Part shown: positions 37,015 to 37,128 of the stretch, one piece after another
How positions within the stretch are numbered: the stretch's first letter is position 1
Layout: each line of letters opens with the position of its first letter
Assembly (NCBI RefSeq): GCF_009914755.1
Contig: NC_060926.1
Length of the DNA stretch: 64,000 nt
Strand: one strand, 5' to 3'
Source: the human T2T-CHM13v2.0 reference genome, Homo sapiens
Position numbers and translations under genes: made by a program
Notes under the pieces: model-generated
What the model was told of the DNA's origin: nothing
Database searches by the model: none
The model's input: the letters and a program-made list of their open reading frames with translations, nothing else

Positions 37015-37128
37015 TTGCATCTCGGCTCATTAAACGCAGTTAAAGTGCAAATCCCCTCATTCTGACAGTAGTGATCACAAGGGTTCTCTTTCTGGTCACA
37101 GCGCTGACTTTTAAACCCCACAGAGCAT
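37015..37128 (-). CDS. LRP1B: Putative alternative cassette exon of LRP1B adding one EGF-like repeat: (L)[37 protein letters not shown](K)
   Basis: ttctgcag|A TGC ... TGC AA|gtaggt; 114 nt (38 codons), phase 2-2, no stop, six cysteines with EGF spacing; fits in frame between exons 86 and 87. Confidence 0.85.

What the first reader, a model, noticed from the sequence alone, without database searches (positions are those of the whole stretch)
37015..37128. Hidden in-frame cassette exon adding one juxtamembrane EGF repeat to LRP1B
Seen: 860 nt into the intron after exon 86 there is a 114-nt segment bounded by ttctgcag| and |gtaggt. It is phase 2-2 like the host intron, has no stop, and encodes [37 protein letters not shown]. 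Splicing gives ...[52 protein letters not shown]. It supplies Cys5-6 for the exon-86 EGF and Cys1-4 of a new EGF that exon 87 completes, so both isoforms keep whole 6-Cys modules (C-x3-C-x5-C-x9-C-x-C-x8-C). Recalled knowledge: canonical LRP1B reads VPVCL|CSTNW and lacks these 38 aa. Inference: a real, selected alternative exon that changes the last ectodomain module next to the shedding-prone stalk. The new repeat has C2-QNEG-I-C3 and lacks the C2-x4-S/T-C3 O-fucose consensus present in the exon-86 repeat (C-YNGG-T-C). It may already exist in minor or predicted transcript models; I cannot check that here.
Basis: partly seen in the sequence, partly recalled or inferred. Interest (0 to 1): 0.9.

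Follow-up and report, generated by a model that had tools for sequence, protein, structure and literature searches.

The report
Conserved extra EGF exon in LRP1B
Inside an intron of the human LRP1B gene lies an intact, well conserved 114-base exon that fish gene models use as coding sequence and that would add one more EGF module next to the membrane, but whether human cells splice it in could not be checked here.

Summary
At window 37128..37015 (minus strand) there is a 114-nt, stop-free, phase 2-2 segment between ttctgcag| and |gtaggt, 860 nt after exon 86. Its cysteine layout occurs only three times in the window: exon 85, exon 86 and here. Shuffled sequence gives 0.02 per window.

It is a real exon unit, not chance. 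Teleost lrp1b protein models splice the orthologous segment between the exon-86 and exon-87 equivalents (P0015, P0032, P0026). Five unnamed genomic ORFs from other, apparently mammalian, species keep 35-37 of its 38 residues. The intron-derived residues just upstream keep only 4-13 of 24-26.

All four tetrapod models that span the junction skip it. Human LRP1 has only a 161-nt intron at this point.

Best reading: an ancient LRP1B coding exon kept under selection in mammals and used as a cassette skipped in the reference isoform. Human inclusion was not shown, because no RNA data were available. I could not see whether minor RefSeq or GENCODE models already hold it. The papers I searched do not describe it. 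Interest is moderate.

The parts
37015..37128 (-). Candidate cassette exon: 114 nt, phase 2-2. It encodes Cys5-Cys6 for the exon-86 EGF module plus Cys1-Cys4 of an additional module (37 whole codons, P0001, plus two split codons).
   Evidence: Orthologue spliced in teleost models. Conservation.
37129..37148 (-). 3' splice-site region (…ttactgaaattctgcag). The AG is at 37130-37129. The pyrimidine tract is weak: 12 of 20 pyrimidines, against 17 of 20 for exons 85 and 86.
   Evidence: The seven read-through residues here are kept 6-7 of 7 in P0004-P0008. Fish genomic ORFs read F-C-S or S-C-S at the same place, which fits the same ...tgcag acceptor (inference from the residues).
37009..37014 (-). 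5' splice site gtaggt. With the last three exon bases it matches the consensus CAG|GTAAGT at 7 of 9 positions.
   Evidence: Eight of 9 genomic ORFs from other species stop right after the final Lys, as an intact AA|GTA or AA|GTG donor would make them.
37989..38093 (-). Annotated exon 86. It is a paralogous exon unit of the same design (105 nt, phase 2-2) and acts as the upstream splice partner.
   Evidence: Hub annotation.
14832..14908 (-). Annotated exon 87, the downstream splice partner. It supplies Cys5-Cys6 of the last module and the stalk before the membrane span.
   Evidence: Hub annotation.

Best explanation
The segment is a true, ancient coding exon of LRP1B. The exons of the juxtamembrane EGF cluster are cut between Cys4 and Cys5 of each module and are all in phase 2. 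Each exon therefore carries the tail of one module and the head of the next. Adding or omitting one such unit always leaves whole six-Cys modules (shown by the sequence). One teleost lrp1b paralogue uses the orthologous exon in its gene models (shown). In mammals the exon, its AG acceptor and its donor are kept while the neighbouring intron drifts (shown at protein level). The likely reading is that mammals still use it as a cassette, skipped in the reference isoform and included in some tissue, stage or minor fraction (inferred). The weak pyrimidine tract fits regulated rather than constitutive use (inferred). Inclusion would insert 38 residues and give one more EGF module about 17 residues from the membrane span. 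This would lengthen the stalk and replace the Cys1-4 part of the membrane-proximal module. That could alter shedding, gamma-secretase processing or a juxtamembrane contact (inferred, untested).
For: Anatomy: searches show AG/GT borders, 114 nt, phase 2-2 and no stop. The donor matches 7 of 9 consensus positions, within the 5-8 range of the six annotated donors in the window. Not chance: one search gives 3 hits (2 annotated exons plus this one) against 0.02 expected. Paralogy to exon 86: 11 of 22 identical, E 1e-4. Use as an exon elsewhere: P0015 (named by its source as Oncorhynchus tshawytscha) reads exon-86 equivalent, then cassette, then exon-87 equivalent, then membrane span and tail. P0032 (Cyprinus carpio) shows the upstream junction and P0026 (Aldrovandia affinis) the downstream junction. 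P0035 (Notothenia coriiceps) runs from exon 86 into what I judged by eye to be the same segment in a shifted frame. The P0015 stretch 85-154 aligns as two tandem EGF repeats to Notch1 (E 1.7e-5). Selection in mammal-like genomes: 5 of 5 candidates keep all six Cys. They keep 35-37 of 38 residues, against 4-13 of 24-26 upstream of the acceptor region, and the upstream parts carry indels. Four more distant fish-like genomic ORFs show 68-73% identity.
Against: There is no transcript evidence for human or any tetrapod. The 4 tetrapod models that span the junction all skip the segment: Scotinomys P0024, Cricetulus P0057, Petaurus P0025 and Apaloderma P0027. One bird model (P0030) skips exon 86 too. 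Three models of the other teleost paralogue (P0023, P0029, P0040) and one sturgeon model (P0031) also skip it. The genomic ORFs were found because they are open, so decayed copies in other species would not have been seen. One of the 9 genomic ORFs (P0014) loses the frame at residue 36. Conservation was measured on proteins only, so no synonymous versus non-synonymous count was possible. Human and P0004 carry two changes (Glu, His) where the other mammal-like and fish sequences have Val/Ala and Tyr. The exon alone scores below Pfam's EGF cut-off (12.9 against 21.5 bits), as expected for two-thirds of a module. A 2021 review states six EGF modules next to the membrane and mentions no such isoform (PMC8469001, passages).
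Confidence: 0.72

Rival explanations
1. Fossil exon. It was coding in the ancestor, and still is in a teleost paralogue, but tetrapods no longer splice it. What is seen in human is a not-yet-decayed remnant.
For: All 4 tetrapod models spanning the junction skip it. The curated human transcript lacks it (hub annotation). Reviews count six EGF modules. The acceptor has a weak pyrimidine tract. The search for intact ORFs is biased towards intact copies.
Against: An unused exon should not stay open since the fish-tetrapod split with all six Cys, AG and GT intact. It should not keep 35-37 of 38 residues in five further genomic ORFs while the adjoining intron-derived residues keep 4-13 of 24-26 and carry indels.
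Confidence: 0.12
2. The exon is real and used, but it is already held in minor or predicted human transcript models (RefSeq XM, GENCODE, CHESS). In that case the finding is ordinary annotation rather than a hidden exon.
For: The hub lists 4 RefSeq transcripts and shows only one. Automated pipelines already include the orthologous exon in teleost models.
Against: Nothing seen here shows it. No paper in the searched library carries the peptide (0 papers) or describes an LRP1B isoform with an extra EGF module (passages read). The only alternative exon named in those passages is exon 90 (PMC3119793).
Confidence: 0.45
3. It is a conserved non-coding element, such as an intronic enhancer or splicing regulator, whose open frame is incidental.
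For: Conservation alone does not prove coding. No RNA evidence is available here.
Against: The conserved block starts at the acceptor and ends at the donor. It keeps a six-Cys EGF exon unit found otherwise only in exons 85 and 86. It is translated in teleost models.
Confidence: 0.03

Closest known systems
LRP1B exon 86 (and exon 85), the annotated juxtamembrane EGF exon units in the same window
   Same: Both have the same design. They are in phase 2-2, carry Cys5-Cys6 of one module plus Cys1-4 of the next, and have a C-D-x-Y-C start to the new module.
   Different: Exon 86 is constitutive in the reference transcript and has a strong pyrimidine tract (17 of 20). The candidate is absent from the reference transcript and has 12 of 20. 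The candidate lacks the Ser/Thr before Cys3 that exon 86 has.
Teleost lrp1b gene models that contain the orthologous exon (P0015 Oncorhynchus tshawytscha, P0032 Cyprinus carpio, P0026 Aldrovandia affinis; names as given by the sources)
   Same: The exon sits in the same position between the exon-86 and exon-87 equivalents, has the same length (37 residues plus split codons) and the same Cys layout. By my count, 24 of 37 residues match human.
   Different: The exon is part of the listed model there. In human it is outside the reference model. These are automated predictions, and I saw no transcript data behind them.
Human LRP1, the paralogue of LRP1B
   Same: It has the same cluster of EGF exon units before the membrane span. 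The exon-86 equivalent is found at G000 C12:57179741.
   Different: The matching intron is only 161 nt and holds no EGF unit. The cassette is therefore specific to LRP1B or was lost from LRP1.
LRP1B exon 90, the alternative exon reported for mouse Lrp1b
   Same: It is an in-frame cassette in the same gene (99 nt). Skipping is reported in mouse brain, adrenal gland and testis (PMC3119793, passages).
   Different: Exon 90 encodes part of the cytoplasmic tail and is included in the reference transcript. The same paper did not find its skipping in human tissues.
Juxtamembrane O-linked-sugar cassette of LDL-receptor relatives (Lr8+/Lr8- forms of VLDLR)
   Same: A receptor of the same family exists with or without a module next to the membrane through alternative splicing (PMC9935665, passages).
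   Different: That cassette is a Ser/Thr-rich linker, not an EGF module. Its effect on proteolytic processing is recalled knowledge and was not checked here.

Membership tests
EGF-like module (Pfam PF00008) of the LRP1/LRP1B juxtamembrane cluster | Six-Cys layout, with exon borders between Cys4 and Cys5 | tested here: met
   The unit pattern is found only at exons 85 and 86 and at the candidate.
EGF-like module (Pfam PF00008) of the LRP1/LRP1B juxtamembrane cluster | Profile match above the curated cut-off | tested here: inconclusive
   the exon alone gives 12.9 bits (E 0.14) against a cut-off of 21.5. It holds only four of the six Cys of one module. Exon 86 alone gives no hit at all.
EGF-like module (Pfam PF00008) of the LRP1/LRP1B juxtamembrane cluster | In spliced context it forms two complete tandem modules | tested here: met
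   on the natural teleost protein P0015: residues 85-154 align to a pair of Notch1 EGF repeats (E 1.7e-5). The human spliced product was not assembled or tested.
EGF-like module (Pfam PF00008) of the LRP1/LRP1B juxtamembrane cluster | EGF fold with 1-3, 2-4, 5-6 disulfides | not tested
   Structure prediction was not accepted.
Alternative cassette exon | AG and GT borders, length a multiple of three, no stop, same phase as the host intron | tested here: met
Alternative cassette exon | A transcript that skips it exists | tested here: met
   The hub annotation (NM_018557.3) joins 37989 to 14908. Tetrapod models P0024, P0025, P0027 and P0057 show the same join.
Alternative cassette exon | A transcript of the same species that includes it exists | not testable with these tools
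   No RNA-seq, EST or full transcript-model data were available. Inclusion was seen only in teleost models.
Alternative cassette exon | Conserved more strongly than the flanking intron | tested here: met
   35-37 of 38 residues against 4-13 of 24-26. This is at protein level only and on ORFs that had to be open to be found.
Decayed (fossil) exon | Stops, frameshifts or lost splice sites in human or orthologues | tested here: not met
   Human is intact. Five of 5 mammal-like ORFs are intact. One of 4 fish-like ORFs (P0014) loses the frame at its end. The sample is biased towards open frames.

The most novel reading that the evidence does not exclude
Human and other mammalian LRP1B make a regulated isoform with an additional membrane-proximal EGF module, encoded by an exon that is in neither the curated reference nor the literature. 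On this reading the exon has been kept since before the fish-tetrapod split. It changes how the receptor stalk is cleaved or what it touches at the membrane. Variants at chr2:140,715,015-140,715,128 (T2T), now read as deep intronic in this heavily mutated gene, would then be coding.
Probability: 0.3. Interest if true: 0.55.

Novelty: new member of a known kind. Interest (0 to 1): 0.42.

Why it matters
LRP1B is among the most often altered genes in human cancers, and it is hard to study because of its size (PMC8469001 and PMC11103968, passages). A conserved coding exon outside the reference transcript would have three consequences. It would change how variants in that stretch are classed. It would add an isoform to consider in mini-receptor work, which uses exactly this membrane-proximal part. 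It would offer a handle on regulated processing of the stalk. It also shows how the phase-2 exon design of the EGF cluster lets modules be added or dropped without breaking a fold. If the exon is already in predicted models, the value shrinks to a comparative note that the exon is old and selected.

Tried and rejected
I sent the 40-residue window read-through instead.

(2) The same query against proteins of 22-70 residues found nothing.

(3) Search of the exon peptide against solved structures gave only generic EGF hits: Notch, spitz and prostaglandin synthase EGF. No LRP1 or LRP1B chain was found, also with P0015.

(5) A second copy or fossil elsewhere in the genome was not found. One search gives only the exon itself and a weak paralogous LRP1B exon. 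LRP1 has none.

(7) Seven literature searches found no description of this exon. I read passages of PMC3119793, PMC9935665, PMC8469001 and PMC11103968. I saw only the search listing for the other papers. Supplements were not opened. The original LRP1B gene-structure papers are not in the searched library.

(8) P0009 (E 1e-16, 7 stretches) is a repetitive protein without EGF features and was set aside as spurious.

(9) P0012, P0016, P0017, P0018, P0020 and P0022 (38-44% identity, many stretches) were not fetched. I took them for generic multi-EGF proteins.

(10) No DNA of other species could be fetched, so no dN/dS or splice-site alignment was made.

Full report
**1. The observation**

Read on the minus strand, the window shows ...gaaattctgcag|ATGCTCTG...GAGATGCAA|gtaggttt. 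The first exon base is 37128 and the last is 37015, which gives 114 nt. Annotated exon 86 ends ...GTGTGTCT|gtgagt at 37989. Exon 87 begins ag|ATGCTCC at 14908. Both junctions split a codon after its second base, so a 114-nt insert keeps the frame.

The distance from exon 86 is 860 nt, and the remaining intron down to exon 87 is 22,106 nt. Every factual point of the finding holds. One detail differs: the exon-86 module has ten, not nine, residues between its third and fourth Cys.

**2. Is it more than chance?**

I wrote a pattern for the exon unit used in this part of LRP1B. It asks for Cys5-Cys6 of one EGF module, a short linker, then Cys1-Cys4 of the next, with no stop.

- In all six frames of the 64 kb it hits three places: exon 85, exon 86 and the candidate.
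- Fifty shuffles (mononucleotides shuffled within 1-kb blocks) gave one hit in all, a mean of 0.02.
- The candidate's second half is 11 of 22 identical to exon 86 (E 1e-4 for the pair).
- Against Pfam the exon alone gives EGF at 12.9 bits, below the 21.5-bit cut-off. Exon 86 alone gives nothing. Neither exon holds a whole module, so this is expected.
- The exon is unique in the genome.

**3. Relatives**

A 40-residue read-through of the window (37133..37014) was searched against the 5.8-billion-protein set among proteins of 71-2000 residues. It returned 5 candidates, all significant, with 92-98% identity over the full query.

All five (P0004-P0008, unnamed sources) are genomic ORFs. They run from unrelated upstream sequence through the acceptor into the exon, and they stop immediately after the final Lys, which is where the donor gtag supplies a stop in human. 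Aligned with the human 69-residue ORF:

| Region | Residues identical to human |
|---|---|
| The 38 exon residues | 35-37 of 38; all six Cys invariant |
| The seven residues over the acceptor region | 6-7 of 7 |
| The residues further upstream | 4-13 of 24-26, with indels |

The conservation therefore has an edge at the splice acceptor. The caveat is that only open frames of 71 residues or more can appear in this search, so decayed copies would be invisible.

The exhaustive HMMER search of the 50%-identity representatives with P0001 gave 17 hits at E up to 0.001.

- Three are the ORFs already seen.
- Four are more distant genomic ORFs at 68-73% identity (P0010, P0011, P0013, P0014).
- Three of those four again end one residue after the exon. 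P0014 leaves the frame at residue 36.
- P0009 is a repetitive protein and I set it aside.
- Six multi-EGF proteins were not fetched.
- P0015 (295 residues) is a spliced LRP1B C-terminal fragment, and it is the decisive hit. It reads the exon-85 and exon-86 equivalents, one residue, the orthologue of the candidate, Lys, the exon-87 equivalent, the membrane span and the LRP1B-type tail.

Using P0015 as the query among proteins of 162-517 residues gave 38 hits at E up to 1e-10 among 490 candidates. I read all 38. Its source names P0015 as an Oncorhynchus tshawytscha protein.

| Group | Models |
|---|---|
| Include the exon | P0015; P0032 (Cyprinus carpio, upstream junction); P0026 (Aldrovandia affinis, downstream junction) |
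| Runs from exon 86 into what looks like the same segment in a shifted frame (judged by eye, not computed) | P0035 (Notothenia coriiceps) |
| Skip it, fish | P0023 (unnamed), P0029 (Prochilodus) and P0040 (C. carpio X2), which share a different tail and look like the second teleost paralogue (my inference); P0031 (Acipenser sinensis) |
| Skip it, tetrapods | P0024 (Scotinomys), P0057 (Cricetulus), P0025 (Petaurus), P0027 (Apaloderma) |
| Joins exon 85 directly to exon 87 | P0030 (Chlamydotis) |
| LRP1-type fragments without the exon | P0033, P0044 |
| Say nothing on the point | The remaining 23: fragments starting at or after exon 87, one model that jumps from an earlier EGF module straight to the membrane span (P0051), and genomic read-through ORFs |

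In summary, the exon is included in 3 of 3 in-frame models of one teleost paralogue. It is skipped in 4 of 4 tetrapod models that span the junction.

**4. LRP1**

With a fish LRP1 fragment (P0044) I located human LRP1 on contig 12. The exon-86 equivalent starts at C12:57179741. The next exon's first Cys codon is at 57180004. The intron between them is 161 nt and holds no EGF unit. The cassette is thus a feature of LRP1B, or it was lost from LRP1.

**5. How it most likely works**

The following points are shown by the data.

- The exons of this cluster are cut between Cys4 and Cys5 and share phase 2. One unit more or less therefore always gives whole modules.
- In P0015, residues 85-154 align as two tandem EGF repeats to Notch1.
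- The human acceptor has 12 of 20 pyrimidines, against 17 of 20 for exons 85 and 86. That equals exon 90, which is alternative in mouse.
- The donor matches the consensus at 7 of 9 positions, within the range of the annotated exons.

The following points are inferred.

- Mammals keep the exon because they use it, as a cassette with limited or regulated inclusion.
- Inclusion adds 38 residues and one module about 17 residues from the membrane span.
- The membrane-proximal module then has Ile before Cys3, where the exon-86 module has Thr.
- Whether that matters for O-fucose rests on a recalled consensus. Effects on shedding or intramembrane cleavage are untested.

**6. Rivals**

- A fossil exon is unlikely given the sharp conservation edge and the age of the exon. 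It cannot be excluded without RNA data (about 0.12).
- A non-coding conserved element is very unlikely (about 0.03).
- The main threat is to novelty rather than to the biology. The hub shows one of four RefSeq transcripts, and I could not see the others or GENCODE. I put even odds on some predicted model already holding the exon.

**7. Print**

Seven searches of the paper library found no description.

- The peptide strings occur in 0 papers.
- Passages of PMC3119793 name only exon-90 skipping.
- Passages of the review PMC8469001 state six EGF modules beside the membrane and mention no isoforms.
- PMC11103968 describes a 5'-truncated transcript only.
- PMC9935665 concerns other receptors.

Supplements were not opened. 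Subscription papers, including the original gene-structure reports, are outside the library.

**8. Verdict**

The segment is a genuine, old and selected LRP1B exon, used in fish models and skipped in the human reference. Human inclusion and annotation status remain open. It is a new member of a known kind (in-frame module cassette in an LDL-receptor relative) and of moderate interest.

Noticed in passing
P0015, P0026, P0032 versus P0023, P0029, P0040: Teleost lrp1b fragments fall into two tail types. The models of one type include the cassette and those of the other skip it. This suggests that the two teleost paralogues divided the two isoforms between them.
   Followed up: partly
P0014: A fish-like genomic ORF, nearly identical to P0013 over the exon, leaves the frame at residue 36 and runs on for about 70 residues. 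It could be a decayed duplicate copy or an assembly error.
   Followed up: no
window 37129-37152, minus strand: A second AG (tttag|ctg) lies 24 nt upstream of the acceptor. The 24 nt are open in the exon's frame, so an alternative 3' splice site there would also stay in frame and add eight residues.
   Followed up: no
L008, G000 C12:57179995-57180003: The LRP1 exon that follows the exon-86 equivalent has the acceptor octamer ttctgcag, the same as the LRP1B cassette. LRP1B exon 87 has atttttag instead. This may be chance, because the octamer is close to the consensus.
   Followed up: no
P0030 (Chlamydotis) and P0051 (Acipenser ruthenus): These are models that omit exon 86 (P0030) or jump from an earlier EGF module straight to the membrane span (P0051). 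They are either prediction errors or further module skipping, which the phase-2 design allows.
   Followed up: no
P0036-P0039, P0041, P0028, P0034 (P0034): Many database fragments from birds, frog, dog, platypus, snake and fish start with unrelated residues and join exon 87 onwards. They may be truncated predictions or internal starts in the long intron that also holds the cassette.
   Followed up: no
window 2542-2640, exon 90: Exon 90, the known alternative exon in mouse, has the same low pyrimidine count (12 of 20) before its acceptor as the candidate.
   Followed up: no
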